IMG/VR virus record: IMGVR_UViG_3300025913_000019
Reading direction: 5' to 3' (one strand)
DNA from: a virus
Taxonomy: Duplodnaviria; Caudoviricetes
DNA: 64,000 nt
The translations under genes and the position numbers were made by a program. The notes beneath the pieces were generated by a model that saw only the letters and a program-made list of their open reading frames with translations, ran no database searches and was not told the DNA's origin. Shown piece after piece: positions 36,681 through 60,034 of this stretch (position 1 is the stretch's first letter; each line of letters opens with the position of its first letter).

Positions 36681-37004
36681 TCAGAACCTCTCGAACCACG
36701 CGGGGTCCGGTTCCGATTCTTTCGGCCAGTCCGGGATCGGATGCAGGCCGCGCAATTCGTGGGCCGTCGTGTCCGGCAGGAAGTTGATCTGACCATCGGT
36801 CACGAACGAGTGACAGACGGTCTCTGCCTTGCGACGCGAACTCGTGACCAGCAGAGACGGCTGGAACGTCGGCTTCGTCGTGTCACCGTTGAAGGTCCAC
36901 GGGTTCGGGTGCGGCTCGACGGCAATGACGTGACTGGTGCGACAGCCGGGACACCAGAGGTAGACGCGCGTCGGGTTCCTGATCTCACGCCTGAGGATGC
37001 TCAC
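36681..37004 (-). CDS. DUF6527-like Cys/His protein
   Basis: CPGC..SH...WTFNGD..KPTFQPSLL...CHSFVTDGQI..D..HELRG. Confidence 0.7.
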   Translation of the reverse strand: MSILRREIRNPTRVYLWCPGCRTSHVIAVEPHPNPWTFNGDTTKPTFQPSLLVTSSRRKAETVCHSFVTDGQINFLPDTTAHELRGLHPIPDWPKESEPDPAWFERF

Positions 37005-37468
37005 TTATTGTCCTCGGACAACTGGTTGAGCTTGCGCAGCGCCAGGCTGAACTTCATCCACCAGGCGGTGTAGGCTTCGACCTCCTTGTCCACCCGCTGC
37101 GCGAATCCTTCCGCGTAGTTGATGATCTTGCCGATGTCAGCGATCTCCTTCTGGTCGATGCCGTACACCACATCTTCCATGTGCTCGCTGAAGCTCAGCT
37201 CCGGCTTGGCGCTGAAGTCCAGGTCGAGAGACTTGGAACCCTTGCCCTTTTCGTTGAGACTGATGTCGAACGTGACGACTCGGTTCTCGCCGAACGTGAC
37301 TTCGCACGAACAGGCCAGGTCACCCCAGGCATCGACCTCGATCTTGACCTTCAGACCGGAGGACGCGAAGGCCTGCTCGACGGCCGCCTTCGCGTCCTCG
37401 GCAGAACCCTGCGGCTTGGCCTCGAGTCGCTGCATTTCCTGCAGCCGGGCCTTCGCTTGGATGTCCAT
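37001..37468 (-). CDS. Putative internal head protein (motif MDIQAKARL)
   Basis: Shared N-terminal peptide; SD GGAG. Confidence 0.75.
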   Translation of the reverse strand: MDIQAKARLQEMQRLEAKPQGSAEDAKAAVEQAFASSGLKVKIEVDAWGDLACSCEVTFGENRVVTFDISLNEKGKGSKSLDLDFSAKPELSFSEHMEDVVYGIDQKEIADIGKIINYAEGFAQRVDKEVEAYTAWWMKFSLALRKLNQLSEDNK

Positions 37469-37478
37469 CTCGTTCTCC

Positions 37479-37778
37479 TTAGAGCGCGACGTAGAGGATC
37501 GATTCCTTCTGGAACCAGTGCTCGATCTCCAGGTACTCGCCGTTGCCGTCCGGGTAGTACTGGCGTCCCTTGTGCGGGACCTTTTCCAGAGCCTCGGGCT
37601 TGAACGGCGCCTCGAAGTAGATCGCGGCTTCGTCGGTGCCGAGACGCTCGACGCCCTTGAGGCCGACGCCCAGCTTCTGCGCCATCGACTGCGCGAGGTG
37701 CTTGAGGTGATCCGGCATGTCGTCGGCCATGATCTTGAAAGCCGAGAGTCGCGCCTTCGCTTGCAGTTGGATTTCCAT
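37479..37778 (-). CDS. Putative internal head protein (motif MEIQLQAKARLSA)
   Basis: Start reassigned to 37778 using SD GGAG and the motif. Confidence 0.75.
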   Translation of the reverse strand: MEIQLQAKARLSAFKIMADDMPDHLKHLAQSMAQKLGVGLKGVERLGTDEAAIYFEAPFKPEALEKVPHKGRQYYPDGNGEYLEIEHWFQKESILYVAL

Positions 37779-37803
37779 TCTGTTCTCCGCTTCGGATGTG
37801 GAA

Positions 37804-37824
37804 GCGGGGCCGCTAGGGCCCCGC
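37804..37824 (-). terminator. GC-rich hairpin after the 250-aa virion gene (weak terminator or processing stem)
   Basis: GCGGGGCC-5 nt-GGCCCCGC; only a short U tract. Confidence 0.45.
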
Positions 37825-37832: not shown

Positions 37833-38585
37833 TCAGGCGAACGTGCCTTCGTTGACCTGGCGGATGGTCTCGCGCATGTACTCGGGGTCGTAGCTGTAGA
37901 GACGCGTCCAGTAGGCGTTGGCCACCTTCTTTTCCTCGGGCGTCAGGCTCGCCATGACAGCCGCGTGGACACCGGCGTCGATCTGCACCGGGGTGATGGA
38001 CACCACGTTGTCGTAGTCGACGGTGGCCACGGCCTTGCGCGCGAACGACACGACCTTGACCTTGTCGTCCGAAGACGCGACGGTGAAGCCGTGATCGACG
38101 TCGCCTTCGGCGTCGACGAAGGCCACCAGCTCGTTGCGGCCGGCCTTGGCGATGGTCAGCTGCGACAGGCGCGGGACATCGGGACGGGCGAGACGCGAGG
38201 CCTGCACCAGCGCCGTCAGGTCTTCCTGGCCGTGGCGGGCGAGGAACTTGTTGCCGCCGGCACCCTGGCGCACTTCCCACAGCGACTTGTCGGCGTCGTC
38301 CATGAGCATGTTCGAGCCCATGACGCGGTAGCTGGCCTTGAGCTCCTTCTCGGTGACGACGCGGATCGCACGGTTCGCCTTGACGAAGCCGACGGCGACG
38401 CCTTCCTTGATCTTCTTCACCGACGACTTGACCAGCGAGACCTGGTTGTCGAAGATGCGGGCGACTTCGTCGTGCATGAAGTCGCGGCCGAACTTGCCGG
38501 TGTAGCTGAGGATCACCTTGGCCAGCGTCGGGGTCTTGACGCGGTAGTCGGTGATGGCGACGGTGTTGGTCTGGAAATCGGACAT
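37833..38585 (-). CDS. Putative virion structural protein (250 aa)
   Basis: Strong codon bias; SD GGAG; own promoter-like box upstream. Confidence 0.7.
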   Translation of the reverse strand: MSDFQTNTVAITDYRVKTPTLAKVILSYTGKFGRDFMHDEVARIFDNQVSLVKSSVKKIKEGVAVGFVKANRAIRVVTEKELKASYRVMGSNMLMDDADKSLWEVRQGAGGNKFLARHGQEDLTALVQASRLARPDVPRLSQLTIAKAGRNELVAFVDAEGDVDHGFTVASSDDKVKVVSFARKAVATVDYDNVVSITPVQIDAGVHAAVMASLTPEEKKVANAYWTRLYSYDPEYMRETIRQVNEGTFA

Positions 38586-38654
38586 GGAGTTTCTCCGTTG
38601 TGACTGGTTAGACAGAATGAGAGGCTATCCGATACGGGAGTCGCCTTGGTACGC

Positions 38655-38670: not shown

Positions 38671-38925
38671 TCAGATCGGGAGCTGACGGTCGCGGTCGGC
38701 CTTGTACGCGTCGGCGCAGTGCGTCCTGGAGAAGGCCAGGCCGTTGATGATGTACATCATGAACCCGAACTTCTTCTTGTCGCGGTGCTTGCGGAACGCC
38801 ACCGACGACATCGTCTCCCACGGGTTGCCGCGGAGGAACAGGGCGTTGGCCAGGTAGTCGAGGCAGATGAAGACGCCGAACAGGTAGTGCTTGAGAGCCA
38901 GCCAGATGGCCTTGAGCTTGGTCAC
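38671..38925 (-). CDS. Small hydrophobic phage protein (D..ANAL..G.P.ET.SS...HC family)
   Basis: GTGA-coupled start; recognisable widespread phage pattern of unknown function. Confidence 0.65.
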   Translation of the reverse strand: MTKLKAIWLALKHYLFGVFICLDYLANALFLRGNPWETMSSVAFRKHRDKKKFGFMMYIINGLAFSRTHCADAYKADRDRQLPI

Positions 38926-39902
38926 TTGTGTGCTCCTTGATGCTTGGGGAGGATGAGCTTGTGCTCGCGCCCGAATTTCGTACCCGGGTATTTCTTCATG
39001 TAGGCCTTGCGATCCTCGGCAGGCAGCGAGTGGAACCACTTGTGGGTCCGACCGTGCGGCTCCTTCGGATCGATGACGAGCGCGCCGTGCAGCGGCTGCG
39101 GCATGTGCTCGTAGTTGATCTTGAGGTGCAGCTTCTTTGCCGCCGCGTAGAAGAGCGCGACCATGAGGGATGCAGCGTCGCCCGAGTGGGAGCCGAGGAA
39201 GTGCAGCAGTCCTTCCACATGAGAGGCGCCGTAGGCCGTGATGCCGAGACCACCGGACGCGAGACCGAACAGCAGGACACTGATGTCCTTCAGGCCCTGC
39301 TTGGAGGCGAACATGTCGGCCAGGCTGTAGTCACCCTTGACGCAGTTGATGACCGCGTCGACGATGCCCAGGTCGTAGTCTGCGTCACCGGTCGACGACG
39401 CGTGAAGGAATCCCCACACGAGGAAACCTGCGACTGCAAGACCCGTGACCTTGGTCAGCACCGGGTGGCGATGGATCACTTCGTCCAGCTTCTTCACGCG
39501 CTCGTGGACATCGAGATGCTGCATCAACTTCGAGGAACCGAAGGTCTCGATCAGATCATCGAAGGCCGCGAACAACGCGGTCGCCGGAAGTGCCATCGCC
39601 TTCTTGACGGCCTTGAGTAGCTTGGCGATCGAGAAGCCCACACCCTTCAGGAGTCGGAACACCGACTTCTCTTTGAAGGCCTGGACGATGGAGTCCCAGC
39701 CGATGTGAGCCGACTCGGCCAGCAGTGCTCCGACTTCCTTCAGCTCGGACCACAGCTTCTTCAGTGCACCCGGCACCTTGAACTCGAAGGCTTGCAGCTC
39801 GTGCGGATCACGCGCCAGGGCTTCGACCACTGTCGCGTACTTCTCATAGGTGACGTCGGCCGCCTCCATGAGCATGAGGCGCGTCTCAGCTTCGAGTTTC
39901 AT
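38922..39902 (-). CDS. Putative internal head protein (motif variant MKLEAETRL)
   Basis: Start 1 nt after the upstream stop; C-terminal KWFHSLPAEDRKAYMKKYPGTKF. Confidence 0.75.
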   Translation of the reverse strand: MKLEAETRLMLMEAADVTYEKYATVVEALARDPHELQAFEFKVPGALKKLWSELKEVGALLAESAHIGWDSIVQAFKEKSVFRLLKGVGFSIAKLLKAVKKAMALPATALFAAFDDLIETFGSSKLMQHLDVHERVKKLDEVIHRHPVLTKVTGLAVAGFLVWGFLHASSTGDADYDLGIVDAVINCVKGDYSLADMFASKQGLKDISVLLFGLASGGLGITAYGASHVEGLLHFLGSHSGDAASLMVALFYAAAKKLHLKINYEHMPQPLHGALVIDPKEPHGRTHKWFHSLPAEDRKAYMKKYPGTKFGREHKLILPKHQGAHK

Positions 39903-39903: not shown

Positions 39904-40755
39904 TCAGGCATTCCACCAGTTGGGTTCGACCATGAAAAAGGAGACGATGGCTTCGGGCGGCACGGGCACGGTGATGAACTTGAACTCCGGCTCATCGACC
40001 AGCTCGTCCTGGTACAGCACCGCGCCGGGGACCTTCGCGAGATCGATCGTGACCGCACGATACTGCGCGTTGACAGCACGAAGTTTCGACTCATCGAACT
40101 CGCCCCACTCCTCCAGCGACCAGCGCTTGGACAGCAGCATGCCCATGACCTGGGACACGACTTCGGGCTTCTTCGACATCGTCAGGAAGATCGAGGGCTT
40201 GCCGTACTTGAGGCTGCCCTTCCACAGGCCCTGGCCTTCTTTCGTCAGCTTCAGGCCTTCGCGCTCGATCTTGCGCACGTTCTTGCCTTCGGTGAAGTGG
40301 TAAGCCAGCTGTTGCTTGGCGGCTTTCAGCTGCTTCGGGACCGGGAACGTGCCGGCGATCGTCACCAGCTTGTGAATCACGTTCGGCTGCTCGAGCTCGA
40401 AGTGGATGCCCGTCTTCTTCAGGATCGCGAGGCAACGTCGAACCAGCTCGTTCGCAGCCTCCACACCGTCCCAGCTCTTGGTGCGAGTGAAGAGCCGCAG
40501 CGCTTCGTTCGTGATCTCGCGTGGCGTCTCGACGAAGAGCTGTGCCACGCCATGCTGGACCTCACCGATGGAGATGGCCCACGAGCTGGACTCGAAGTCG
40601 AAGTACAGGATGGTGGGGTAGATCCCGGCGCTGTGCTGCGGCTGCACCTTGAGCCCCACCTTGTGGAGCGCTTCAGCGACCCGCGTGCGGATCACATCGG
40701 TCAGCTCGGACGTTGGCGCGAACGCCAACAGACGGGACTTGGCTTGCAGCTTCAT
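39904..40755 (-). CDS. Putative internal head protein (MKLQAKSRLLA) with C-terminal ADP-ribosyltransferase-like domain
   Basis: YHFT...VRKIEREGL; SIFLT; VTIDL; DEPEF...VPPEAI. Confidence 0.7.
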   Translation of the reverse strand: MKLQAKSRLLAFAPTSELTDVIRTRVAEALHKVGLKVQPQHSAGIYPTILYFDFESSSWAISIGEVQHGVAQLFVETPREITNEALRLFTRTKSWDGVEAANELVRRCLAILKKTGIHFELEQPNVIHKLVTIAGTFPVPKQLKAAKQQLAYHFTEGKNVRKIEREGLKLTKEGQGLWKGSLKYGKPSIFLTMSKKPEVVSQVMGMLLSKRWSLEEWGEFDESKLRAVNAQYRAVTIDLAKVPGAVLYQDELVDEPEFKFITVPVPPEAIVSFFMVEPNWWNA

Positions 40756-41460: not shown

Positions 41461-41826
41461 TTAAAGGGTCTGATAGTCTCCGAGATCGGGCATGGCTTGC
41501 AGAGGACCCGTCGACAGAAGTCGATGACCAGCACCGAGACCCATGCCCATCGAGATGGGGCCGGGTTCGCTGTGCATGATCTCGGCGTCACTCTGCTTGA
41601 TGAGGTTCTGGTTCTCATCATCCGGCTGATACCCGGTGTTACCCGGGTTGTCGGCATCATCCATGCCCTTGCCGATCAACTCATCGTCGACTTCGTCTTC
41701 ACGCGGCAACTGGTGGTCGGCCTCCGCTTCGTCCATGTAGGTCGACGGAGGCCGATCAGTTGTGTTGACGACGGAGGCGAGGATGGAGATCAGCGAGCTC
41801 AGTCTGGCCTTCGCCTGCAGCTTCAT
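41461..41826 (-). CDS. Acidic putative internal head protein (MKLQAKARL)
   Basis: TGATG-coupled start; motif; D/E-rich body. Confidence 0.75.
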   Translation of the reverse strand: MKLQAKARLSSLISILASVVNTTDRPPSTYMDEAEADHQLPREDEVDDELIGKGMDDADNPGNTGYQPDDENQNLIKQSDAEIMHSEPGPISMGMGLGAGHRLLSTGPLQAMPDLGDYQTL

Positions 41827-42149
41827 CACAGTTCCTCGTGGAGGTGGACCTTGCCGCCGATGTGCTCCATGACCCAGCCGGGCTCGCCTTTCTTCGACCA
41901 CGTGATCTTGGACCCGTGGTCCGCGATCTTGTAGCCGAGGTGGGTGAACACCAGCTTGTTCAGGTCGCGGGCGCCGATCTTGAACATGCCATCGGAGAGA
42001 CGGCCGTTGCTCTTAATCTCCTGGCGCCCGTTGTGCGTGAGCTCGAAGTCAGCGGTCTCGAACGTGTCCTTCAGGACTTCCAGCAGCCGCGGGCCCAGGG
42101 TCTTGAGGTCCTGCAACGCCAGCAGCCGCGACTTCGCGTGCAACTTCAT
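41826..42149 (-). CDS. Putative internal head protein (MKLHAKSRLLA)
   Basis: Motif; SD GAGG; follows the tail tube gene. Confidence 0.75.
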   Translation of the reverse strand: MKLHAKSRLLALQDLKTLGPRLLEVLKDTFETADFELTHNGRQEIKSNGRLSDGMFKIGARDLNKLVFTHLGYKIADHGSKITWSKKGEPGWVMEHIGGKVHLHEEL

Positions 42150-42157: not shown

Positions 42158-42676
42158 TCAGAACGTGTTGCCGTCGTTGATGTAGTCGAAGCTGAACGTG
42201 AGGCTCAGGTCGATCACCGTCGAGCTCGCGCCGTCGAACTGCACGTCCGCGATTTCGGTGATGAAGCAGCCAGCGAGGATCATCGTCTGGCTGATGGCGC
42301 CGGCGTTGTCGTAGACGTCGAGCTCCAGGTTGACCTTGTAGGCCGCCGAGTTCGAGCCCGTGTTGTTCTTCCACGAGCGCTGGAAGTCGCGCCACGCGCG
42401 CATCGCCATGTAGGTCGAGTAGTCGACCGTCTCCATGATCGTGGCGTTGAACGTGTGCTGGTACGTGGCACGGCCGGCTTCCTGCTTCTTCATGCCGTGC
42501 AGCTCGATGCCGACGGGTTCGATGGAGCTGGAAGGCAGGGCCGTGGTCTTGCACTTGTACGTCATCGACCGCGCGATACCGGAGGTGCCCGGGACCGTGG
42601 GGAAGAAGAGGTCGAAGTTCCAGGACTGCGCGGCGTCGGGCAGGTTCTGGATGTTGTCGTAGCTGGTACGTGCCAT
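42158..42676 (-). CDS. Tail tube protein
   Basis: 172 aa directly after the sheath; WNFDLFFP, TFNATIMET, LAGCFITEI..VQFD, SLTFSFDY T4 gp19-like pattern. Confidence 0.85.
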   Translation of the reverse strand: MARTSYDNIQNLPDAAQSWNFDLFFPTVPGTSGIARSMTYKCKTTALPSSSIEPVGIELHGMKKQEAGRATYQHTFNATIMETVDYSTYMAMRAWRDFQRSWKNNTGSNSAAYKVNLELDVYDNAGAISQTMILAGCFITEIADVQFDGASSTVIDLSLTFSFDYINDGNTF

Positions 42677-42699
42677 GTCTGTTCCTTGAGAGAGTTGGA

Positions 42700-42725
42700 G
42701 GCCGGTCCTAATCAAAGGACCGGCC
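42700..42725 (-). other. Perfect 10-bp stem-loop between sheath and tube genes, no U tract
   Basis: GGCCGGTCCT-6 nt-AGGACCGGCC. Confidence 0.7.
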
Positions 42726-46397: not shown

Positions 46398-47471
46398 TTA
46401 CAGGCGGTAGCCCTTCGCGAAGGAGCGGCTGTTCGCCACCGACACGGCCAGGGCCTCGTGCAGCACGAAGCCGCGACCCGGGATCTTCTCGATCGAGATG
46501 TCGATCGGGGTCGATTGCAGGCCGCCGCGATCCGAGTACGCGCCGTGGTTCAGGGCGTCCGAGATCACGAAGAACTCGCCTTGGCCCAGGACCTTGTGCT
46601 CCGGATGACGGAACGCGTCCGACGTGACGGTCATGCCGTACATCGTGCCCAGCTCGCCGGTGAGCAGGAGCTCGTGACGGGCCACCGGGTCGATGGCGGT
46701 GAAGAAGTCGGAGTTGCCGACCACGTCCTGCCACAGGTCCGTCGCCATCAGCAGGTGCGCGCCCTTCAGACCCCAGCGGGTCACGTTGGTCACGACCGTC
46801 ATCAGGCTGTACGGCGTCAGCTGGCCCGACACGATGGTCAGGTTGTTGTCGACGCCGACCAGGCTCTGCAGCTGGTTGTAGTAGAGGCGGTCTTCCGCCA
46901 CCATCGTGGCCTCGACGGCCTCGATGTACTTCTCCTGCAGCACGTCGCCGCTGGACTGGTTCAGTTCCACCTGGGGGATGAACGGACGGGCCACGACCGT
47001 CAGTTCCGGCGGGGTGAACCACTTGTCGCGGGTGATCTGCGACTCGACCTTGGTCGGGCTGGTGGACCAGACCGCGGTCACGTTCTTGTTGCGCAGCGGG
47101 AAGCGCGGGATCGAGCCCATCTCGACGTCGATCTTGGCCAGGTACTTGCGCATGAAGCCCTGACGGTTCGCCGTGATGTACAGCGACTCGCTGATCTTCT
47201 CGCCGAGCACGCGGTGGGCCTCGGGGCTGTTGAACGCGGCACGGACCAGGTCCTTCGACTCGGAAGCCGTGATCGCGAGCATGTTGCCGGCCGACGCTGC
47301 GGTCAGGAACTTGCGCTGCTGCTCGAGCAGGTCGCGCTTCGAACTGGCGTTCAGCTCGCCCTTGCCGGAGCCTTGGTAGCGGCCGACGAAGGATTCGCCG
47401 CCGTCGACCGGGCGGAGGTCGGTGGCGAGCACGGGCGACTTGGCCGCGCGGATGTTCACTTGGGTACGCAT
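46398..47471 (-). CDS. Major capsid protein (HK97 fold)
   Basis: 357 aa with the strongest codon bias; follows scaffold and decoration-like genes; IDPVARHELLLTGELGTMYGMTV. Confidence 0.85.
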   Translation of the reverse strand: MRTQVNIRAAKSPVLATDLRPVDGGESFVGRYQGSGKGELNASSKRDLLEQQRKFLTAASAGNMLAITASESKDLVRAAFNSPEAHRVLGEKISESLYITANRQGFMRKYLAKIDVEMGSIPRFPLRNKNVTAVWSTSPTKVESQITRDKWFTPPELTVVARPFIPQVELNQSSGDVLQEKYIEAVEATMVAEDRLYYNQLQSLVGVDNNLTIVSGQLTPYSLMTVVTNVTRWGLKGAHLLMATDLWQDVVGNSDFFTAIDPVARHELLLTGELGTMYGMTVTSDAFRHPEHKVLGQGEFFVISDALNHGAYSDRGGLQSTPIDISIEKIPGRGFVLHEALAVSVANSRSFAKGYRL

Positions 47472-48224: not shown

Positions 48225-49751
48225 TCAGCCGACCAGCGACTGGTTGCCGAACAGCAGCTTGTTCACGCTGGCCATGTCGGAGATGCCAGCGGTGACCTTG
48301 CCACCGGGTTGCGAGAGACGACGGGGGCCGGCCGACGAGAGGGCCGCGGTCACCGACGACGGAGCGCCGATGTCCTCGAACTCGTCTTCCGTGTCGTCGC
48401 CATCGACTTCGCTGTCGACCTCGGTGCCCGCGTCATCCACGAAGTCCTCGTCGCTGGTCATGTCCAGCGCTTCAGCGTGGTTGTCACGGACTTCCTCGGG
48501 CATGGCAGCGATGCGTTGCGCGAGGGTGAGGATCGACTTCGCGTACTCGACGCCGTGTTCGGCGAACGCGGCCGAGATCAGGGACTGCGCGCCGCGCACG
48601 CCGGCCTGCTTGAGCTGTTCGAGCAGAGCGGCCTTGAGCGGGTTGGGCGCATCCTTGAAGTAGCGCTTGTTGATGCCGACGGCGGCGATGGCCAGGCTCT
48701 GTTCCATCGCGGCGTTCTGCTTGGCAATGGCTTCGACGCGCGACTTCATGCCGGCTTCGACCTTGGCCTGCACGACACGGCTGGTGGCCTTGGAAGCCGA
48801 CAGCGTGACCTTGGCCAGCGTGAAGCCTTGTGCCACCAGGCCGCGACGCAGGCCCTTGGTGTCGATCGCGTGAGCGACGACGTCCTGGTACTGCGGGGTC
48901 TGGTACACGTCCGTGACGTTGAGCTTGCGCGCCGCGGCCGGACCCATCGAAGCGATGATGCGGTTGCTGCGGATCACGTGCACGGCGGCGCCGATGGAGG
49001 CGAACGCGAGGGCATCACTGCCTTCGCCGTCTTCCACGTTGTCGACGTCGACCAGCGGCATCTGCTCTTCAGCAGCGGCCGGGGCTTCGGCTTCGAAGTC
49101 GGCGCATTCCATCGCCGGGGCTTCGTTCGGCGCGCCCGCGCCCATGTCGGCTTCGACCGGGGCTTCCGGGGCCGGGGCTTCGAAGCCCACGTCCTCGAAC
49201 TCGTCGTCGTCCAGGTCGTCGGCGCCGGCGCTCAGCGACGGGAGGTCGTCGAACTCGGTGCTGGCGGCCATCGGATCGGACTCGTCGTCTTCCTCGAACT
49301 CGTCGGCACCCGGAGCTTCCGGCGCCGGGGCGTCGTTCAGCTCGTTCTCTTCGTCGGCACTGGCGTTGTGGACGACGGGCATGCCCGCTTCCTTCTCCAG
49401 GTAACCGGCGCCGGGATCGACGTCGTTGTCGAGCTGCGAGATGTTGCCGCTGGAAGGCATGGTCTCGTCCTTCAGCGACTGGGCAGGTGCGCCGTTGGCT
49501 TGCACCGCCGGCTTCTTCTTGGCCGCGGCCACCGGCGTGGCGCTGGCGGTCGTGGGGGCCTTGGTCTTGCCGGGCATCTTGGGCTCCTCTTGCGAATGCG
49601 TGGGGCCGGACTCGAGGCTCGCGGGGTCGATGAGCATCATCGGCTGTTGCGAGTTTTCGAGACCTTGGTCGCCCTGCTCGACCTTGAGATCCTTGCCGTT
49701 GCCGTCATGGGTCATCGTGGTCGAGGCTGCTGCGTGAACCTTGTCGGTCAT
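48225..49751 (-). CDS. Prohead scaffold/core protein
   Basis: SD AAGGAG before MTDKV; long acidic disordered region plus helical domain; upstream of MCP. Confidence 0.7.
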   Translation of the reverse strand: MTDKVHAAASTTMTHDGNGKDLKVEQGDQGLENSQQPMMLIDPASLESGPTHSQEEPKMPGKTKAPTTASATPVAAAKKKPAVQANGAPAQSLKDETMPSSGNISQLDNDVDPGAGYLEKEAGMPVVHNASADEENELNDAPAPEAPGADEFEEDDESDPMAASTEFDDLPSLSAGADDLDDDEFEDVGFEAPAPEAPVEADMGAGAPNEAPAMECADFEAEAPAAAEEQMPLVDVDNVEDGEGSDALAFASIGAAVHVIRSNRIIASMGPAAARKLNVTDVYQTPQYQDVVAHAIDTKGLRRGLVAQGFTLAKVTLSASKATSRVVQAKVEAGMKSRVEAIAKQNAAMEQSLAIAAVGINKRYFKDAPNPLKAALLEQLKQAGVRGAQSLISAAFAEHGVEYAKSILTLAQRIAAMPEEVRDNHAEALDMTSDEDFVDDAGTEVDSEVDGDDTEDEFEDIGAPSSVTAALSSAGPRRLSQPGGKVTAGISDMASVNKLLFGNQSLVG

Positions 49752-49913
49752 GAGCACTCCTTGGGTCAAAGTTGATGAGTAGGTTAGCCAAAGCGTACTA
49801 GTCCGCTCAGGCTAACCCGCTCGCGTTCTCAGGCGTTCCCGCCCGCAAAATAAAAATGTATGTCGCAGAATCCGGGCGAAATCAGAGGTGCACCCGAAAG
49901 TCAGGGCGAGAAA

Positions 49914-50514: not shown

Positions 50515-50778
50515 TTATTGGTTCGTCTTCTGCGCCTTGACGGCGCTGGCGCTCGAGCCCGCGTTCTTCAGGCGGGCAACGGCGCCCACCTTCATCGGGT
50601 TCGGAGCTTCCGCGTTGGCAGCGGGTTCGGCATTCAGACCGACAGCTCGCGAGCCACCGTTGCCGAGCCTGGCAACCGGTTGCGTCTGCGGTGCGGTGTT
50701 CTCGCTCGTGTGCAGCGAGGTCGAGGCTCCGAGTTCGGAACCGAGGCGGCTCTTGGCCTTCAGCTTGATGTCGTTCAT
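50515..50778 (-). CDS. Small putative internal head protein (MNDIKLKAKSRL)
   Basis: Motif; SD GAAGGA. Confidence 0.75.
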   Translation of the reverse strand: MNDIKLKAKSRLGSELGASTSLHTSENTAPQTQPVARLGNGGSRAVGLNAEPAANAEAPNPMKVGAVARLKNAGSSASAVKAQKTNQ

Positions 50779-50787: not shown

Positions 50788-51156
50788 TCAGCCGTAGTAG
50801 GCGCTCTCTGCGTTCTTCATCAGCATGAAGCCCAGGTTGTAGGCTTCTTCCCAGGTCAGGGCGATGTCCTTGCCCGCGATCTTGAGCTCGATGTTCGGCA
50901 CGCCGTCCATGAGGTTGCCGCCATACTTCTGGTCCATCTCGCGCAGCTTCTTCGAGTCCGGAGTCTCGTCCTCACTGTCGATCATGACGCGCACCTGCGC
51001 GTGACCGCCTTCCTTGGTCTTGAGACCGTAGGTGCCGGTCGACGGACTTCCCGTGAACGTCTTCTTGAACGTCTTGTCCCACGGGATGTTGGTCGCGGTC
51101 ACGACACGTGCGATGGCTGCGGCGACGAGCCGCGACTTTGCTTGCAGTTTGGTCAT
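50788..51156 (-). CDS. Putative internal head protein (MTKLQAKSRLVA)
   Basis: Motif; 4 nt after the protease stop. Confidence 0.75.
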   Translation of the reverse strand: MTKLQAKSRLVAAAIARVVTATNIPWDKTFKKTFTGSPSTGTYGLKTKEGGHAQVRVMIDSEDETPDSKKLREMDQKYGGNLMDGVPNIELKIAGKDIALTWEEAYNLGFMLMKNAESAYYG

Positions 51157-51160: not shown

Positions 51161-51949
51161 TCACCAGCTCATGATGTGGTCGGACATGGCCGAGACCCAG
51201 GCGGGATCGCGGACGATGGAGTACTCGATCGGCGACAGGCCGTGAGCGTTGAGGTACGCGATGCGCTGCTTGCCCATGTAGTCCACGAGCTTCCAGTTGA
51301 CCTCCTTGGTGGAGCCCACGTGGTTGCAGTTCATGAACTTGTTCTCCGTGGCTTCGCGACCGCAGACCGCGCACGAGAACCTGTCAGCCAGCGCACCCAT
51401 CGAGCCGGTCGTGATCTTGCCTTCGAGCAGCTCCTTCGCGATGTCGGGGTACTTGTTCTTGTCGACGCCGACCAGACCCATGACCTTCCAGTGCTTGCCG
51501 CGCCCGAAGTTCGTGATCTTGGTCAGTGCCGTGTCGAACATGACACCGTAGGCCTTGGTCCAGTCCTCGTTGTCGTGCTCGAGGTGAATCGGGCAGCCGG
51601 TCCAGGCCTTGTAGACCTGGCGGTTCATCGGAGGCGGCTGGAAGGCGATGAGCTCTTGCAGCGGGAAGCCGATGCCGTTCCGATTCGGGAAATCCGACGG
51701 GCAGATCGGCATCGACTTCATGATGTAGTCCTCGATGTGAGGACTGATGTGGTACGTCTTTGCCGCGAACGGCAGCCACGTCTCGAAGTCGAGCTTGCGA
51801 ACCATCTCGGCCGCTTCGGTATCCGGCTTCGCATCTGCATCGAAGGCCGGCTCCTCGCTGACGCCCACGCCCTTGATGAGCGTGGCGGCCGTGAGCATGC
51901 GATCACGCTCCTCGCGGTCGAAGTACTGTGCGGGAAAACGGCCACCCAT
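51161..51949 (-). CDS. Prohead (capsid maturation) serine protease, HK97/herpes clan-like
   Basis: PNRNGIGF; PIHLEHD (His); GSMG (Ser); IEYSIVRDPAW. Confidence 0.8.
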   Translation of the reverse strand: MGGRFPAQYFDREERDRMLTAATLIKGVGVSEEPAFDADAKPDTEAAEMVRKLDFETWLPFAAKTYHISPHIEDYIMKSMPICPSDFPNRNGIGFPLQELIAFQPPPMNRQVYKAWTGCPIHLEHDNEDWTKAYGVMFDTALTKITNFGRGKHWKVMGLVGVDKNKYPDIAKELLEGKITTGSMGALADRFSCAVCGREATENKFMNCNHVGSTKEVNWKLVDYMGKQRIAYLNAHGLSPIEYSIVRDPAWVSAMSDHIMSW

Positions 51950-56200: not shown

Positions 56201-58073
56201 TGGGGCACATCACGAGGTAGGGCGACGACTCGCCGTGCGCGATCTCGTACAGGATGTCCGTGATCGCCAGCATCGACTTGCCACCACCGGCGTCGACCGG
56301 CCACGCAGCGAGGTCAGGACGACCGCGCATGATGTTGCGGATCTTGGCTTGGTGGGGCAGAAGACCCGACTCTTCCTCGCTGAACTTGCGCGTCAGCAGC
56401 GGGGCTGCCGGCGGAGTCCAGTTCTTGTCCACGCCTTGCAGAGCGGCCGGCTTGTTGATGGCCGCGGCCTGCACCGTCGTCGTGGCGAGATCAGCGCCGT
56501 AGGCAGCGAGCACCTGGATCTGACCCAGCTGGTCGGTCATCGTGGTCACGGCGTACTTGACGAACAGCGACTCGATGTTCCTCACCATCGTGGCCGCGAG
56601 CGTGACGATGAACCGTGCGACGGGCTGGATCGCGAGCTCGGCTTCCACGTCAGGCGAGTTGTGGTCGCCTCCAACGACGTTGAGGCTGTCCATCAGCCAG
56701 TAGCCGGTCATGAACTGCGCGTTCGTCAGCTCGTAGTACTGCTTGAAGGCGAACTTCGCGTAGTCCTCGATGCTGAGGTCGTCGCTCGCGCCGGGGAAGT
56801 CCTCGATCTTGGCGCCGTAGTTCCGGGCCACGATGCTCAGGTTGCAGGCCTCCGCGTAGTGGCTCATGCGCGTGATGAATGCATCCGGGATCGGGCGCTT
56901 CAGCAGGTTCATGGCCATCGACGCGTTGCACTTGCGCATGTGCGCCAGGTCGAGAACTTGCGGCTTGCCGGTCGAGTCCGAGTACGTGAACTTGTTGTTC
57001 ACCCAGTCGGTCAGGATCGGGATGTTGATCGGGAGCTGCGGCTTGCCAGCCGAGCCCATCCGGCGCAGCGCGAACTCGCCGTCACCTTGTTGACCGGCAG
57101 CGCTGAACATGGACTCGTACTTGTTCGTGTTGTTGCAGGCACGCGGAATCCAGATCGGCTCGCCCTTCAGGTTGATGGTGATGTTGTTCTCGTCCACGCG
57201 CTCGTCGGACTCGAGATGCTTCGGCAGCGTCTCGGCGATGCGAGAGATCGAGGTCGCGCTCTTGCCGTACTGACGGCTGACGTACTCGGCCTCGACCCAC
57301 ATCGTGAACAGCGGGTACAGGTCGACCGGACGGATCTCGGCCCAGTCGGTCGAGATCAGGTAGCAGGCCTCGACCGGCTTGATGACGAACTCGAGGAAGA
57401 TCGTGACATGGCGGCTGTCAACCTGGTAGCCGACGCCGCGCAGGCACTGGCTGAACATCGTGGTCGCGTCGGCCTTGATGCCGGCCTTGGCCACGACCTG
57501 CGAACCCGGGAACAGGGTGTACTGCGGAGTCTCGGATGTGAGGCCGGCCTGGCAGACTTCGATGTACTTGTTGCGGGCTTCGTCGGTCATGGACTCGCCG
57601 CCGAACAGCTGCAGCACGAAGTCGACCGATTCAGGGCTCGCAGTCGTCAGCTGGACGACCGGCAGCTTCAGCAGGAAGTGCGAGTCGTTGCCGGCGTTGA
57701 CCTTGCGCAGCGACGTGTACTGGTTCAGGCCCCAGTCGATGCGCTTCTTCTCCCACTCGGCGATGGCCTGGTTGAGGTTCTTGCGCTCCTTGCGCTGCTC
57801 CGGCGTCTTGGCGGCAGGCATCTTGCCGACCGGCATGGCCGACATGTTCATCAGCGGTGCGAAGGCGAGCTTCAGCATCGTCTTGCGCGGGTCACCGCTG
57901 TACATCCAGTTGAAGACACCGAGGAAGCCCTGCTGCTTCTGCTCCTTGGTGACGTCGAACTGGCTGTTGGGTACCAGGTTCGTGCGCGGCCGCTTCACCA
58001 GGGCCGCCCTGAGCTTGCTAACGGGCAACGGCAGGAGCGGTTGGCCGATGCGTTCCGATGCGATGGCGTTCAT
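53199..58073 (-). CDS. Large SNF2-family helicase/translocase (1624 aa)
   Basis: DAGGGKS; LMDESH; IASGT; WTPGEQEQGDSRIER (SNF2 motif VI). Start set at MNAIAS, SD AGAGG. Confidence 0.85.
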   Translation of the reverse strand: MNAIASERIGQPLLPLPVSKLRAALVKRPRTNLVPNSQFDVTKEQKQQGFLGVFNWMYSGDPRKTMLKLAFAPLMNMSAMPVGKMPAAKTPEQRKERKNLNQAIAEWEKKRIDWGLNQYTSLRKVNAGNDSHFLLKLPVVQLTTASPESVDFVLQLFGGESMTDEARNKYIEVCQAGLTSETPQYTLFPGSQVVAKAGIKADATTMFSQCLRGVGYQVDSRHVTIFLEFVIKPVEACYLISTDWAEIRPVDLYPLFTMWVEAEYVSRQYGKSATSISRIAETLPKHLESDERVDENNITINLKGEPIWIPRACNNTNKYESMFSAAGQQGDGEFALRRMGSAGKPQLPINIPILTDWVNNKFTYSDSTGKPQVLDLAHMRKCNASMAMNLLKRPIPDAFITRMSHYAEACNLSIVARNYGAKIEDFPGASDDLSIEDYAKFAFKQYYELTNAQFMTGYWLMDSLNVVGGDHNSPDVEAELAIQPVARFIVTLAATMVRNIESLFVKYAVTTMTDQLGQIQVLAAYGADLATTTVQAAAINKPAALQGVDKNWTPPAAPLLTRKFSEEESGLLPHQAKIRNIMRGRPDLAAWPVDAGGGKSMLAITDILYEIAHGESSPYLVMCPSHLVANYVSEIVEFTDGKINVIPITSYNVRTSGLPRLKEIMEAAPINTILVVDYDALKFRSRATVYGTSTITVYPVIDLIRQFQPGYVLMDESHFLRNTGSARMKSVMTLVADIKKKRIASGTMNPDSPSDLPGQMAILDPTVFGTRAQFNEKYGAKISGQRVLQWNQTGPNAVSTVLSKLKETVVWAPAKRKEWACALPPRSDQFSMVTLTPRQKEMYDAIFDDMISSIRKAAETDKNAKALLEKLTGKKATAEDEEKFGDLGDVNPDADDDSEDDVDDIGPAIQPYLADIERFVTNPAFHPYAKNGFINAEGQRVPPLSGDDLKSPKALLLARRLREYLDTHDSKALVFTNYNESTDSLFEAMPDDLKACGLLYKTSSKTEMVNAFKKDPKIRWMIGIRKSLEVGLNLQQAGMLIRMEGVWTPGEQEQGDSRIERPNFSKGGDKREELIFDTIVADKTIDITKAARLRAKIVQLAKFDNPTNPNYQAIPEIPVIPMTLDTIVTMNDFDSNLAAYKDSMEMLSETVKAENREYKEKMIAEGGFKFTQVAQAPTPPGAALLARVPYAQGTELYKASEMGLVRVDNYLGMELTGEDDEDEVPTGDDDDDSKDSAVIKAQRAKVMGMRCHCEFGDGTIFGAAALGKGNFISRVHVLLEDGSKARGLKATNVFVMTRTETNGIDMRNKIAQAAGLEMTAPITVPGLVVKQAKISQRQIDLKKKAEEKEKLKNQVKILDRKSKMSIGLQLSMLNGYMRLTYDIGTNQSAVKALEAVGFRRDPAYMQARIKNARVLLKQAEVWAEAGFEVDDKVDNDAFDVLTQELTGGNIATSRRYARLMAGGNFRNYMRQEFKPRADKKSLCLFALVTDGGDTDPIAIREAEKNGVNPNFGVAYMCLPYGGGFPGTKLATSSRYKVPGMTWRLADPTLSVFVNNLSGAAKVINQLLQAGVKVMNGDELKLQAKKVKKLVPKDDDTLDFRVDAAPEAGGEDEEEVQPQRRGRKG

Positions 58074-58383
58074 TGAATTCCTCTTTGGACTTGATGATGG
58101 CCTGGAAGTCATCCAGTGTCTTGATTTCGTCGCCTCGGAGTTGTCCCTCCCGAAACGCGAGATAGAGTTCCTTGTACCTGCGGGCCGCGAGCGGACTGAG
58201 GCTGAGCAGGAACGGTGCATCCCGGAGTTCAGCCTTCATGATCTTGAACTTGGGATGCGTGATTGGGTAGCCGCGCCGCTTCAGGAAATCATTCTTGGCG
58301 TGGTCGAGTGCCTGCTTGAAGCTGGTGCCCGCGCATTCGCCAGACGCTCCCTGGTAGCGGTAGTCGAAGCTGACGTAGGTCAT
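58018..58383 (-). CDS. Hypothetical protein
   Basis: ATGA-coupled start MTYVSF; overlaps the helicase start by 56 nt. Confidence 0.55.
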   Translation of the reverse strand: MTYVSFDYRYQGASGECAGTSFKQALDHAKNDFLKRRGYPITHPKFKIMKAELRDAPFLLSLSPLAARRYKELYLAFREGQLRGDEIKTLDDFQAIIKSKEEFNERHRIGTHRPTAPAVAR

Positions 58384-59072
58384 AGGTGTCGCACTCCTGT
58401 CGAGTCGCGAGCTCGGTACGTGTTCATCAGCGGCTTCCACAGCTCATCGAGGATGAACTGCTCCTTGGCACGGAGATCGGGACCCGTGTTCATGCCTGGC
58501 GCGTAGACCGGCACGAGCGGCGCCCTGATTTCGTAGCCGATGAACCACTGCCGTGGATTCAGGGTCTCGCGGTTGTAGACGAAGACGAGCAGACCAGGGT
58601 CGAGCTCGCACCGGTAGCGGCGCTCCGAATCGCGGATGCGGCTGAACCTGTAACCGCCGGGCATACGGAACAGCCGGGTGTGCCACTCGGGGTCTTCGAT
58701 CTTGAACTGCGCTTGCACGAGGATCGAGAAGCCGTAGCTCTCGATTCGGGCCTGCCGCTCCAAGTTGTGCCACGGGCTCAGGCCCCGCATCAGTCGGCTC
58801 ACATTCAAGAACCTGACCAGGTGCCGGCGCTGGGTCCAGAGGTAGTTCCTGATTGCGATGTTGGTGTCCGCTTCCGGCATCACAAATGGCAACAGGCCAG
58901 CCGATTTACAACCCTCCTTGTAGCGTTGGAGAGCGGTAACCCATGCTGACCGTGTGTCGGAGGGAAGACCCGAGCACGCTGCAAACCAGATATTTACAGC
59001 GTGCGGGTTGAAGTTGTGCGGGAAGTCCAGAGGCCCTGGTGGCCGCTGGAGCAGCTTCGAGTACGGGCCCAT
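58380..59072 (-). CDS. Hypothetical protein (230 aa)
   Basis: SD AGGAG; operon packing. Confidence 0.65.
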   Translation of the reverse strand: MGPYSKLLQRPPGPLDFPHNFNPHAVNIWFAACSGLPSDTRSAWVTALQRYKEGCKSAGLLPFVMPEADTNIAIRNYLWTQRRHLVRFLNVSRLMRGLSPWHNLERQARIESYGFSILVQAQFKIEDPEWHTRLFRMPGGYRFSRIRDSERRYRCELDPGLLVFVYNRETLNPRQWFIGYEIRAPLVPVYAPGMNTGPDLRAKEQFILDELWKPLMNTYRARDSTGVRHL

Positions 59073-59081
59073 GTGGGACTC

Positions 59082-59834
59082 CTAGATGGTGGGAGGGCCT
59101 TGGCTCACGTCGTCGATGAGGAGCGGCTGATCGGTCGGCGGCTCGACGCCACCGTCGTTGTTCGTCAGCTCCTGCACGACCGGCTCGTCTTCCTCGTCGT
59201 CGCCGTCGATGAGCATGTCGAAGGCCGCGCCGTCGGAGATCGGATCTTCGGTCGACGCCAGCGTCTTCGCATTCGCCATGGCGATCACCTCGTCGTCGCT
59301 GAGCGGTCGGCCGGCTTCGGCCTCGAGTTCCGCGCGATAGCGCTTGCCGGCTTCACGCACCTCGGCTTCGGTGAAGAGGCGGCTGGCCGTCGTGTCGAGC
59401 TTCAGCGGGTCTTCGCCGTTCGGATCAGCGGGATCGACGTCGCCTTCCATGATGCACGGCTGCTGCGCGGAGCTCGTGTCGGCGCCCAGGATCACGTCGT
59501 CTGCGGCTTCCGCCTCGTGGTCTGTGGCGGGCAGGTCGCTCGGGTTCGAGGTCGGCAGCGATCCGAAGTCCGACGTGTCGTTGGCCGTGACCGGCTTGGA
59601 CGCGCGCTCGAGCTCGGAGATCAGGTTCTCGTAAGCGGTCACCGCATCGGTGTGACCACGGGCCTTTGCGGCGGCGTGACCACGGCGTGCATCACCCAGC
59701 TCGGTCTCGATCACGCGCCGCGAGTCGTCATCGACGCTGGCGAAGAAGGTGGCCGAGTTGGACACGGGCTGCGTCGGCTGGTCGTAGGTCGAGCTGGCGA
59801 GCAGGCGTTGCTTGGCTTGGAGTTCGAGATTCAT
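59082..59834 (-). CDS. Very acidic putative internal head protein (MNLELQAKQRLLA)
   Basis: Motif; D/E/P-rich, probably disordered. Confidence 0.75.
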   Translation of the reverse strand: MNLELQAKQRLLASSTYDQPTQPVSNSATFFASVDDDSRRVIETELGDARRGHAAAKARGHTDAVTAYENLISELERASKPVTANDTSDFGSLPTSNPSDLPATDHEAEAADDVILGADTSSAQQPCIMEGDVDPADPNGEDPLKLDTTASRLFTEAEVREAGKRYRAELEAEAGRPLSDDEVIAMANAKTLASTEDPISDGAAFDMLIDGDDEEDEPVVQELTNNDGGVEPPTDQPLLIDDVSQGPPTI

Positions 59835-60034
59835 TTGCTGTGATCCCAGTGTTTGGAGGTCTCGGCGAACTCAGCCATCTTTGCGGGATGGCCGCCGGCC
59901 GCCTTGCCTTTCGCGATGTCCGCTTCGGTGATGGGTTCGTCCTCGCTCTTGCCCAGCCACTTGTGGAAGTCGCCGTGCTTGATGGGGCCGATCTTGGCCA
60001 TGAGCCTGGACTTGGCTTTGAGCTGGAGGATCAT
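59831..60034 (-). CDS. Small putative internal head protein (MILQLKAKSRLMA)
   Basis: Motif; KHGDFHKWLG...DIAKGKAAGG..AKMAEFA resembles a widespread small phage family. Confidence 0.75.
   Translation of the reverse strand: MILQLKAKSRLMAKIGPIKHGDFHKWLGKSEDEPITEADIAKGKAAGGHPAKMAEFAETSKHWDHSK

What the first reader, a model, noticed from the sequence alone, without database searches (positions are those of the whole stretch)
37001..60034. Ten unrelated proteins share an N-terminal (K/E/Q)L(Q/K)AK(S/A)RLxA peptide: candidate capsid-targeting and cleavage signal for injected cargo
Seen: MDIQAKARLQ (37468), MEIQLQAKARLSA (37778), MKLEAETRLM (39902), MKLQAKSRLLA (40755), MKLQAKARLSS (41826), MKLHAKSRLLA (42149), MNDIKLKAKSRLG (50778), MTKLQAKSRLVA (51156), MNLELQAKQRLLA (59834) and MILQLKAKSRLMA (60034). 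All are in the minus-strand virion module, in three clusters around the tube, protease and HNH genes; none is in the plus-strand block. Sequences after the peptide are unrelated (67-326 aa; acidic, basic or enzymatic). Known: T4 internal proteins share a ~10-aa N-terminal capsid-targeting sequence removed by the prohead protease. Inference: an analogous but different address tag that loads an interchangeable effector set into the prohead, probably cleaved after the L-x-A by the protease at 51161..51949. It could be usable for packaging foreign proteins.
Basis: partly seen in the sequence, partly recalled or inferred. Interest (0 to 1): 0.9.

Follow-up and report, generated by a model that had tools for sequence, protein, structure and literature searches.

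The report
Shared head-loading tag on jumbo-phage proteins
Ten otherwise unrelated genes among the virion genes of an uncultivated giant phage all start with the same ten-residue peptide, which is probably an address label that loads them into the phage head as phage T4 does with its internal proteins; nobody has tested whether they are packaged or trimmed.

Summary
All ten ORFs begin, 2-5 residues after an ATG, with [LI]-x-A-[KE]-x-R-L. The 139-kb contig (IMG/VR record, about 59% complete) holds three more strong copies and two looser ones, all on the same strand among virion genes.

- **Selection acts on the peptide.** The protein bodies are unrelated, the codons vary (Arg uses all six) and the upstream DNA is not conserved.
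- **The tag is shared across the clade.** phiRSL1, BcepSauron and 15 IMG/VR relatives carry lineage dialects of it. I counted 61 tagged proteins in 45 sequence families, found only in morphogenesis modules.
- **The neighbouring protease is T4-like.** The gene at 51161-51949 has the T4 gp21/assemblin fold (Z 9.6) with an invariant His and Ser.
- **Weak supporting hints.** The major capsid protein's conserved N-terminus loosely resembles the tag, and candidate scaffold proteins are very acidic.

Best reading (about 0.6): a T4-CTS-like capsid-targeting leader with a different sequence, on a much larger and fast-changing cargo set that includes an exonuclease, a Nudix hydrolase and an ART-like protein.

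Packaging, injection and cleavage are inferred. The cleavage site is unresolved: after L-x-A, or after A-[ST]-E. I found no published description. The scan has noted the same tag in other phiRSL1-like genomes. I rate it a new variant of a known kind.

The parts
37001..37468 (-). Tagged ORF, 155 aa, MDIQAKARLQE..., acidic (pI 4.8)
   Evidence: SD-like AAGGAG upstream
37479..37778 (-). Tagged ORF, 99 aa, MEIQLQAKARLSA...
38922..39902 (-). Tagged ORF, 326 aa, MKLEAETRLML... (weakest tag, PSSM 17.8). A homologue with the tag is present in L011.
   Evidence: no Pfam, PHROG or Atlas lead
39904..40755 (-). Tagged ORF, 283 aa, MKLQAKSRLLA.... The C-terminal half has a weak ADP-ribosyltransferase-clan structural lead (DUF952, Tpt1, DarT/PARP).
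   Evidence: Atlas leads only, scores below 0.9 and TM 0.3-0.74
41461..41826 (-). Tagged ORF, 121 aa, MKLQAKARLSS..., very acidic and low-complexity (pI 4.2). The next gene probably starts at 41450 (MSDPIQ...), so no frameshift is needed.
41826..42149 (-). Tagged ORF, 107 aa, MKLHAKSRLLA.... A tagged homologue is present in L005.
50515..50778 (-). Tagged ORF, 87 aa, MNDIKLKAKSRLGSELGASTSLH.... The ASTSLH stretch recurs in relatives and at the N-terminus of the 514-aa scaffold-like protein.
50788..51156 (-). Tagged ORF, 122 aa, MTKLQAKSRLVA..., directly downstream of the protease gene. A tagged homologue is present in L005.
59082..59834 (-). Tagged ORF, 250 aa, MNLELQAKQRLLA..., very acidic (pI 4.1). 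It belongs to the largest tagged family, with 5 members in relatives.
59831..60034 (-). Tagged ORF, 67 aa, MILQLKAKSRLMA-KIGPIKHGDFH.... In relatives the same body follows the tag after linkers of 0-13 residues.
51161..51949 (-). Prohead (head maturation) serine protease with the T4 gp21/assemblin fold. It is the candidate enzyme that trims the tags.
   Evidence: phrog_18299, E 5e-77. AF2 model pLDDT 88.6. VIA-align to T4 gp21 5jbl: Z 9.6, 137 residues, 3.0 A, followed by herpesvirus assemblins at Z 5.8-7.3. H125 and S183 are invariant in 109 homologues. hhalign places S183 on T4 S140.
46398..47471 (-). Major capsid protein. Its conserved N-terminus ..RAAKSPVLATD.. loosely resembles the tag AKSRLLATE.
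   Evidence: phrog_2522, E 2e-87. N-termini of 13 clade members. It ranks 6th of about 155 untagged N-termini against the tag PSSM, which is weak evidence.
48225..49769 (-). 514-aa very acidic protein (pI 4.3) between the protease and the MCP: a disordered N-terminal half and a conserved helical C-terminal half. Candidate scaffold or core protein, and a possible docking partner of the basic tag.
   Evidence: the role is inferred from position and composition only
42158..42715 (-). Tail tube gene flanking tag cluster 1
   Evidence: phrog_45, E 5e-23
60042..60635 (-). HNH endonuclease gene flanking tag cluster 3 (true start probably downstream of 60635)
   Evidence: phrog_119 and others; the N-terminus looks out of frame

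Best explanation
The window is part of an uncultivated jumbo myophage of the phiRSL1/BcepSauron clade. The peptide M-x(1-9)-[LI]-x-A-[KA]-x-R-L-x-A-[TSA] is a portable leader, basic and probably helical. A single phage-encoded assembly component appears to read it, and it addresses otherwise unrelated proteins to the assembling prohead. In function it would be an analogue of the T4 capsid-targeting sequence with a different sequence.

Proposed steps:
1. Late genes in the head/neck/tail module are translated with the leader.
2. The leader docks the protein onto the scaffold/core. Candidates are the very acidic proteins at 48225-49769, 45775-46305 and 52380-53129, or the inner capsid surface.
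3. The gp21-fold protease at 51161-51949 probably removes the leader during maturation.
4. The cargo stays in the head and enters the cell with the DNA.

The cargo set includes a DEDDh exonuclease, a Nudix hydrolase, an ART-like protein and many small acidic or basic proteins.

Shown here: the tag exists, it is selected at the peptide level, it is restricted to morphogenesis modules, it is conserved in the clade as dialects, the cargo turns over, and the protease has the T4 gp21 fold.

Inferred: steps 2, 3 and 4.
For: - **Separation from background.** There are 13 strong tags in the contig, all N-terminal and well separated from background.
- **Peptide-level selection.** Bodies are unrelated. 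Arg is encoded by all six codons, Leu, Ala and Ser codons vary, and the upstream DNA is not conserved.
- **Clade-wide dialects.** The same tag occurs as LQAKxRL (this phage and L003-L009), LNAAxRL (L010, L012), LEAAxRL (BcepSauron, L016) and AA[VL]xRL (phiRSL1).
- **Restricted to morphogenesis modules.** In the two complete genomes, convincing tags occur only there. In BcepSauron they lie at 35-58 kb, in gp253 two genes after the portal, and in gp276 in the tail-fibre cluster. In phiRSL1 they lie at 60-78 kb and in ORF210 next to the portal.
- **Cargo turnover.** The 61 tagged proteins fall into 45 blastp families, while a few cargoes such as the Nudix are tagged in more than one phage.
- **Modular leader.** Within one family the same body follows the tag after linkers of 0-13 residues, as expected for a separable leader.
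- **Protease.** It has the T4 gp21/assemblin fold with conserved His and Ser.
- **MCP.** Its N-terminus carries a related, clade-conserved h-x-A-[ST]-[ED] stretch.
Against: - There is no proteomic or N-terminal sequencing evidence that any tagged protein is in a virion. The phiRSL1 virion papers are not in the held library, and the GenBank records carry no such notes.
- The tag carries no uniformly placed cleavage motif. Glu at +5 occurs in only 9 of 49 tags, and any acidic residue there in 12 of 49 against a 16% background.
- The MCP resemblance is weak: rank 6 of about 155, and R0 and L1 are replaced by P and V.
- The tag is not strictly N-terminal. It follows a conserved 50-aa domain in L018:7964-8845 and in phiRSL1 ORF112. 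It lies near the C-terminus of BcepSauron gp098 and gp276.
- Some tagged genes sit among tail genes, so the destination could be another virion compartment.
- The topoisomerase IB next to the tagged genes has no tag.
Confidence: 0.6

Rival explanations
1. The tag is mainly a protease recognition and cleavage module, that is a propeptide, and does not itself target anything. The proteins would enter the head or act elsewhere by other means, and the shared peptide would only ensure activation or trimming by the gp21-fold protease.
For: A gp21-fold protease lies next to tag cluster 2. A(+3) and T/S/A(+4) are conserved, fitting an assemblin-like h-x-A|S site. A-[ST]-E follows R-L-x in some tags and in the MCP. 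In phiKZ/SPN3US-type phages many head proteins carry propeptides cut at A-x-E (PMC10052503).
Against: The best conserved positions (L-5, A-3, R0, L1) lie upstream of any plausible scissile bond. That is more than known gp21-type sites need (three residues). No single cleavage rule fits all tags. A cleavage site alone does not explain why the peptide is nearly always at the very N-terminus.
Confidence: 0.15
2. The tag is a docking peptide for another virion compartment or assembly factor, such as the neck/portal, tail lumen, baseplate or a dedicated assembly chaperone. The tagged proteins would be minor structural or assembly proteins rather than capsid cargo.
For: Six of the ten window copies flank the tube and sheath genes. 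BcepSauron gp077 lies between sheath and tube, and gp276 lies in the tail-fibre cluster. phiRSL1 ORF210 and Sauron gp253 lie next to the portal and tail-tube-initiator genes.
Against: Enzymes such as an RNase T-type exonuclease and a Nudix hydrolase are unlikely tail parts. Turnover across 45 families is atypical for structural components. Gene position within one long late operon says little about destination.
Confidence: 0.12
3. The shared sequence acts at the nucleic-acid level, as a translational operator, a downstream box, an RNA structure or a recombination linker for cassette exchange.
For: The motif always overlaps the translation start region. The gene sets differ between relatives, as expected if cassettes are exchanged.
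Against: Synonymous positions vary freely: six Arg codons, three Leu codons, four Ala codons, and TCN as well as AGC for Ser. The 30 nt upstream are not alike. The distance from the ATG varies from 2 to 10 codons. The dialects differ between phages at the amino-acid level while keeping the A-x-x-R-L frame.
Confidence: 0.03
4. The tag is a degron or a chaperonin/chaperone-recruitment peptide. The precedent is the T4 gp23 N-terminus, which directs proteins to GroEL. It would control folding or lifetime rather than location.
For: There is a T4 precedent, cited in PMC10052503. The MCP N-terminus loosely resembles the tag.
Against: Proteins of 67-125 aa and disordered acidic proteins need no chaperonin. 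No Cpn10/GroES gene was detected in the contig, which is 59% complete. The restriction to morphogenesis modules would remain unexplained.
Confidence: 0.05

Closest known systems
Capsid targeting sequence (CTS) of phage T4 internal proteins IPI, IPII, IPIII and Alt, removed by prohead protease gp21
   Same: A short N-terminal peptide of about 10 residues is shared by otherwise unrelated, fast-evolving proteins. The phage has a gp21-fold prohead protease and acidic scaffold-like proteins. The cargo includes nucleic-acid and NAD-type enzymes; T4 Alt is an ADP-ribosyltransferase. T4 precedent is quoted from PMC3012670.
   Different: There is no sequence similarity to the T4 CTS, which ends in an I-A-E cleavage site (from my own knowledge). 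No uniform Glu site closes the tag here. The tagged set is far larger: 13-15 in 59% of one genome and 45 families in the sample, against a handful in T4. The genes are interleaved with head, neck and tail genes. Occasional internal or C-terminal copies occur. Packaging and cleavage are untested.
Propeptides of phiKZ / 201phi2-1 / SPN3US head and ejection proteins cut at (S/A/G)-x-E by gp175/gp245
   Same: These are jumbo myophages with a gp21-type protease and many packaged non-structural head proteins. Propeptides are proposed to act in targeting (PMC10052503). The MCP here has V-L-A-T-[ED], which fits V-A-x-E.
   Different: Those propeptides are 20-254 residues long and share no common N-terminal tag. 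Here the common element is a defined 10-mer at the extreme N-terminus.
Herpesvirus assemblin maturation (M) and release (R) sites, (V/L)-x-A|S
   Same: The protease has the same fold (Z 5.8-7.3). The tag's conserved L-x-A-[TS] matches the assemblin consensus, which I give from my own knowledge.
   Different: Assemblin sites are internal or C-terminal in the scaffold and protease precursor. They are not N-terminal tags on diverse cargo.
Phage P1 Dar anti-restriction cargo (DarB and others) packaged through N-terminal regions and the Hdf/DarA network
   Same: Large and small enzymes are loaded into the head and injected to protect the incoming DNA. A large SNF2-type helicase gene sits next to the head genes here.
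   Different: P1 uses ordered protein-protein dependencies rather than one shared short peptide. The helicase here is not tagged.

Membership tests
T4-type capsid targeting sequence (CTS) system | One short N-terminal peptide shared by otherwise unrelated phage proteins | tested here: met
   13 strong tags; bodies unrelated by blastp; 61 tagged proteins in 45 families across the clade
T4-type capsid targeting sequence (CTS) system | The phage encodes a gp21-type prohead core protease | tested here: met
   VIA-align Z 9.6 to T4 gp21 (5jbl); invariant H125 and S183
T4-type capsid targeting sequence (CTS) system | The tag ends in the protease's cleavage motif and is removed in the mature virion | tested here: inconclusive
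   A at +3 in 36 of 49 tags and T/S/A at +4 in 31 of 49. Glu at +5 in only 9 of 49. No N-terminal sequencing data are available.
T4-type capsid targeting sequence (CTS) system | Tagged proteins are present in the prohead core and mature head and are injected | not testable with these tools
   Needs virion proteomics. The phiRSL1 papers are not held and the records carry no notes.
T4-type capsid targeting sequence (CTS) system | The tag is sufficient to encapsidate a foreign protein | not testable with these tools
   Needs a tag-reporter fusion experiment
T4-type capsid targeting sequence (CTS) system | Sequence homology to the T4 CTS | tested here: not met
   The consensus KLQAKSRLLA shares nothing with the T4 CTS as I recall it. 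This is an analogue, not a homologue.
T4 gp21 / assemblin-fold prohead serine protease (gene 51161-51949) | Assemblin-like fold | tested here: met
   Model pLDDT 88.6. 5jbl_B: Z 9.6, rmsd 3.0 A, 137 of 164 residues. HCMV, EBV and HSV proteases follow at Z 5.8-7.3.
T4 gp21 / assemblin-fold prohead serine protease (gene 51161-51949) | Conserved catalytic His and Ser | tested here: met
   H125 and S183 are invariant in 109 diverse homologues. hhalign puts S183 on T4 S140, and H122 (three residues from H125) on T4 H85 (pairwise P 0.037). The identity of the T4 catalytic residues is from my own knowledge.
T4 gp21 / assemblin-fold prohead serine protease (gene 51161-51949) | Gene sits between portal-side genes and the scaffold and MCP genes | tested here: met
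   The order protease, acidic 514-aa protein, virion protein, MCP is conserved in phiRSL1, BcepSauron and the IMG/VR loci.
T4 gp21 / assemblin-fold prohead serine protease (gene 51161-51949) | Cleaves head proteins after Glu | not testable with these tools
   Only indirect evidence: the MCP has a clade-conserved A-[STH]-[EDQ].
Sec/Tat signal peptide | Hydrophobic h-region of at least 10 residues after a basic n-region (a twin Arg for Tat) | tested here: not met
   There is a single Arg. Most tags are followed by polar or acidic sequence, and every tagged protein but one has a negative GRAVY value.

The most novel reading that the evidence does not exclude
The tag is a clade-wide, sequence-readable address code. 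It would let phiRSL1-like jumbo phages pack and inject a large, rapidly exchanged arsenal of host-takeover or anti-defence enzymes, including an exonuclease, a Nudix hydrolase, an ART-like protein and dozens of unknowns. The tag dialect would co-evolve with one receptor protein. Alternatively, the tag addresses a so far unknown destination other than the capsid interior. In either case the injected or addressed proteome of a whole phage clade could be read from genomes alone, and the 10-mer would be a transferable loading handle.
Probability: 0.3. Interest if true: 0.8.

Novelty: new variant of a known kind. Interest (0 to 1): 0.62.

Why it matters
- If the tag loads proteins into the head, every tagged ORF becomes a candidate injected effector. 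These are mostly proteins of unknown function, and this one fragment holds about 15 of them.
- That gives a direct way to find early-acting host-takeover and anti-defence proteins in a poorly studied jumbo-phage clade that infects Burkholderia, Ralstonia and Achromobacter.
- It would show that the T4 solution of one short leader on interchangeable cargo arose with a different sequence and on a much larger scale.
- It would also provide a short handle for loading chosen proteins into large capsids.
- The dialect differences between related phages offer a natural experiment for finding the receptor by covariation.

Tried and rejected
- **Complex prediction.** A run with the protease (residues 40-262, 109-row alignment) and the first 45 residues of the tagged protein L018:8111-8842 gave 'no answer' (score 0.00). 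It counts neither for nor against binding.
- **First protease model.** The model from 11 sequences was poor (pLDDT 56), and Foldseek gave only weak assemblin hits. A deeper alignment fixed this.
- **Foldseek E-values.** They stayed non-significant even with the good model. The fold call rests on the VIA-align Z of 9.6.
- **Family and Atlas searches.** Pfam and PHROG found nothing for the ten in-window cargo proteins. Atlas searches gave only sub-threshold leads for the 283-aa protein and nothing for the 326-aa and 250-aa proteins.
- **Frameshift idea rejected.** I considered a frameshift joining 41461-41826 to the ORF 40758-41660. The GC3 profile and an ATG at 41450 explain the overlap instead.
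- **Helicase not tagged.** phiRSL1 ORF129 looked tag-like, but its relatives start MA[EN]LRPTTNL without a tag.
- **Nucleic-acid-level explanations rejected.** Codon variation rules them out.
- **Short-profile genome search.** The search with the 15-column tag profile missed all the phiRSL1 tags, so I scanned the full sequences myself.
- **More distant relative.** Vibrio phage GR7B shows no clear tag.
- **Literature.** The phiRSL1 virion papers (Virology 2010, Structure 2013) are not held. Searches found no description of this tag.


Full report
**What the window is.** The region 37-60 kb carries, on the minus strand, a myophage morphogenesis module:
- tail tube (42158-42715) and sheath (42734-44671);
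- major capsid protein (46398-47471) and a virion protein (47514-48194);
- a 514-aa acidic protein (48225-49769);
- a head maturation protease (51161-51949);
- a 1673-aa SNF2-type helicase;
- an HNH endonuclease.

Megablast and tblastn place the phage in the clade of Ralstonia phage phiRSL1, Burkholderia phages BcepSauron, BcepSaruman and BCSR5, and Achromobacter phage Motura. Gene order is conserved with BcepSauron and phiRSL1. The window is part of a 139,364-bp IMG/VR contig that CheckV estimates to be 59% complete.

**The observation.** Each follows an ATG by 2-5 residues, and eight of the ten ATGs have an SD-like core 8-12 nt upstream.
- A position-specific matrix scan of the whole contig gives 13 hits scoring 17.8-28.5, all N-terminal. 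The next best score is 14.2 and is not at an N-terminus.
- The three extra copies lie just beyond the window's high end, on the same strand. Two looser AA-type tags sit on a Nudix protein and on a 328-aa ORF.
- The regex [LIV]xA[KE]xRL occurs 14 times, against a mean of 2.2 in residue shuffles, and 13 of the 14 follow a start Met.
- Behind the tag the 13 proteins show no pairwise similarity. They run from 67 to 326 aa with pI 4.1-10.4.

**Level of selection.** The invariant Arg is written with all six Arg codons. Leu uses CTG, CTC and TTG, Ala uses four codons, and Ser uses both TCN and AGC. The 30 nt upstream are not alike. The constraint is therefore on the peptide. This rejects RNA-operator and recombination-linker readings.

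**Comparative evidence.** I used the protease to fetch 15 IMG/VR relatives with 10-kb flanks, and added the complete phiRSL1 and BcepSauron genomes.
- I collected 49 non-redundant tags from loci that carry the A-x-x-R-L frame. Their consensus is M-x(1-9)-[LI]-x-A-[KA]-x-R-L-x-A-[TSA].
- Each lineage has its own dialect: LQAKxRL here and in the nearest relatives, LNAAxRL in L010 and L012, LEAAxRL in BcepSauron and L016, and AA[VL]xRL in phiRSL1.
- In the two complete genomes, convincing tags occur only in morphogenesis modules. In BcepSauron they lie at 35-58 kb, in gp253 (two genes after the portal) and in gp276 (tail-fibre cluster). In phiRSL1 they lie at 60-78 kb and in ORF210 next to the portal.
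- The 61 tagged proteins fall into 45 blastp families. The cargo set therefore turns over quickly, while a few members, such as a Nudix hydrolase, stay tagged in both this phage and BcepSauron.
- In the family with the body IGPIKHGDFH, the same body follows the tag after 0, 7 or 13 linker residues. That is the behaviour of a separable leader.
- The more distant Vibrio phage GR7B shows no clear tag.

**The protease.** Pfam and PDB sequence searches found nothing, and an 11-sequence model was poor.
- A profile search of 1.8 billion representatives found 1,827 homologues.
- In a 109-sequence alignment the invariant residues are N89, H125, G135, S183, E242 and S244. The model from it has pLDDT 88.6.
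- VIA-align puts T4 gp21 (5jbl) first, with Z 9.6, 137 aligned residues and 3.0 A. Herpesvirus assemblins follow at Z 5.8-7.3.
- hhalign against T4 gp21 is only borderline (P 0.037). It places S183 on T4 S140 and the H-x-E-H motif on T4 H85.
- The gene is therefore a gp21/assemblin-fold prohead serine protease. This is the enzyme class that removes the T4 CTS.

**Where might the tag be cut?** Two rules are compatible with the data.
- *After L-x-A.* Ala at +3 occurs in 36 of 49 tags and T/S/A at +4 in 31 of 49.
- *After A-[ST]-E.* gp21-type enzymes of T4 and phiKZ/SPN3US cut after Glu (PMC10052503). The MCP of every clade member has a conserved ...K-x-P-V-[VL]-A-[AT]-[STH]-[EDQ]-h-[KR] stretch at residues about 10-20. 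In this phage it reads AKSPVLATD, next to the tag AKSRLLATE.

However, Glu at +5 is present in only 9 of 49 tags. The MCP's match to the tag matrix is modest, at rank 6 of about 155. The site therefore stays unresolved, and whether the tag is cleaved at all remains an inference.

**Possible receptor.** Three proteins in the head gene block are very acidic (pI 4.3-4.7), low-complexity and partly helical, as scaffold or core proteins are. They lie at 48225-49769, 45775-46305 and 52380-53129. The tag core carries two to three basic residues and almost no acidic ones. Electrostatic docking of the leader on the core is a reasonable guess and nothing more. A complex prediction of the protease with a tag peptide gave no answer.

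**Complications.**
- In one conserved family the tag follows a 50-aa domain (KEGKGS..LEKKWD). This is seen in L018:7964-8845 and in phiRSL1 ORF112, always with a Met just before the tag.
- In BcepSauron gp098 the protein ends 16 residues after the tag. gp276 has one tag at each end, and gp075 repeats the tag plus the following W-x-x-L...HP segment.
- The peptide is therefore a module that is usually, but not always, N-terminal.
- Several tagged genes sit among tail genes, so another virion compartment cannot be excluded.

**Comparison with the known.** The closest known system is the T4 capsid-targeting sequence. [quoted passage not shown] The present system works like it in every feature that can be read from sequence. 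It is not homologous in sequence, it is much larger, and it lacks a uniform Glu site. I found no description of the tag in the held literature, including a 2026 review of jumbo phages. Earlier notes of this scan report the same tag family in other phiRSL1-like genomes. They agree with this reading but are not independent evidence.

**Verdict.** This is a new variant of a known kind.

Noticed in passing
homologues of window 51161-51949 (P0002, P0006, P0041 and about a dozen others): Several metagenomic homologues of the prohead protease are 600-770 aa long. They match the profile in two pieces split near profile position 120, next to the conserved G-C-P-x-H. The insert carries Hint/intein-splicing and LAGLIDADG domains, so these are inteins in a prohead protease near its catalytic His.
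   Followed up: partly
L018:7964-8845 (contig 39963-40844, beyond the window's high end); phiRSL1 ORF112; BcepSauron gp098; Vibrio phage GR7B L048:15698-15889: A small conserved domain (...KEGKGS..LEKKWD/EEKWEAAK...) is widespread in the clade. It stands alone as a 63-71 aa protein, next to the protease in GR7B. In this phage and in phiRSL1 it is followed, after a conserved Met, by the tag and a variable body. This could be an internal start, a fusion, or a tag used internally.
   Followed up: partly
L018:5896-7563 (contig 37895-39562): A topoisomerase IB gene (Pfam Topoisom_I, E 5e-16) lies directly upstream of a tagged ORF but has no tag itself. From memory, the abstract of the phiRSL1 virion study lists a topoisomerase IB among virion proteins. 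If so, packaging does not always need the tag.
   Followed up: no
window 53199-58220: A 1673-aa SNF2-type helicase is conserved between the neck and head genes in the whole clade. phiKZ is reported to package a predicted helicase in its head (PMC13282480). The ORF's first ~100 codons look non-coding, and the true start is probably near ...MNAIASERIGQ. It carries no tag.
   Followed up: partly
window 50515-50778 and 48225-49769; L003:4974; L001 (BcepSauron) gp084 and gp093: A second short motif, A-S-T-S-L-H, follows the tag in the small protein next to the protease. It recurs at the N-terminus of the 514-568-aa acidic scaffold-like protein (AASTTMTH here, AASTSLH in BcepSauron gp084). The small gene may be a detached copy of that protein's N-terminus.
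   Followed up: no
L001 (BcepSauron) 18274-20004 (gp075) and record 175135-175620 (gp276): gp075 carries the tag and the following W-x-x-L..Q/K..Y..HP segment twice, at the N-terminus and about 205 residues in. gp276 has a tag at its N-terminus and another at its C-terminus (LGAAARLVATAQ*).
   Followed up: no
phage records MW460245 (BCSR5), LT598654 (NCTB), KY448244 (Yoloswag): Homologues of this prohead protease are annotated as 'endolysin' in several deposited genomes. This is probably a propagated mis-annotation.
   Followed up: no
window 40758-41660: The long ORF listed here overlaps the tagged ORF 41461-41826 by 200 nt. The GC3 profile and an ATG at 41450 (MSDPIQ..., 230 aa) indicate a shorter, untagged gene with a PHROG 33338 C-terminal domain.
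   Followed up: yes
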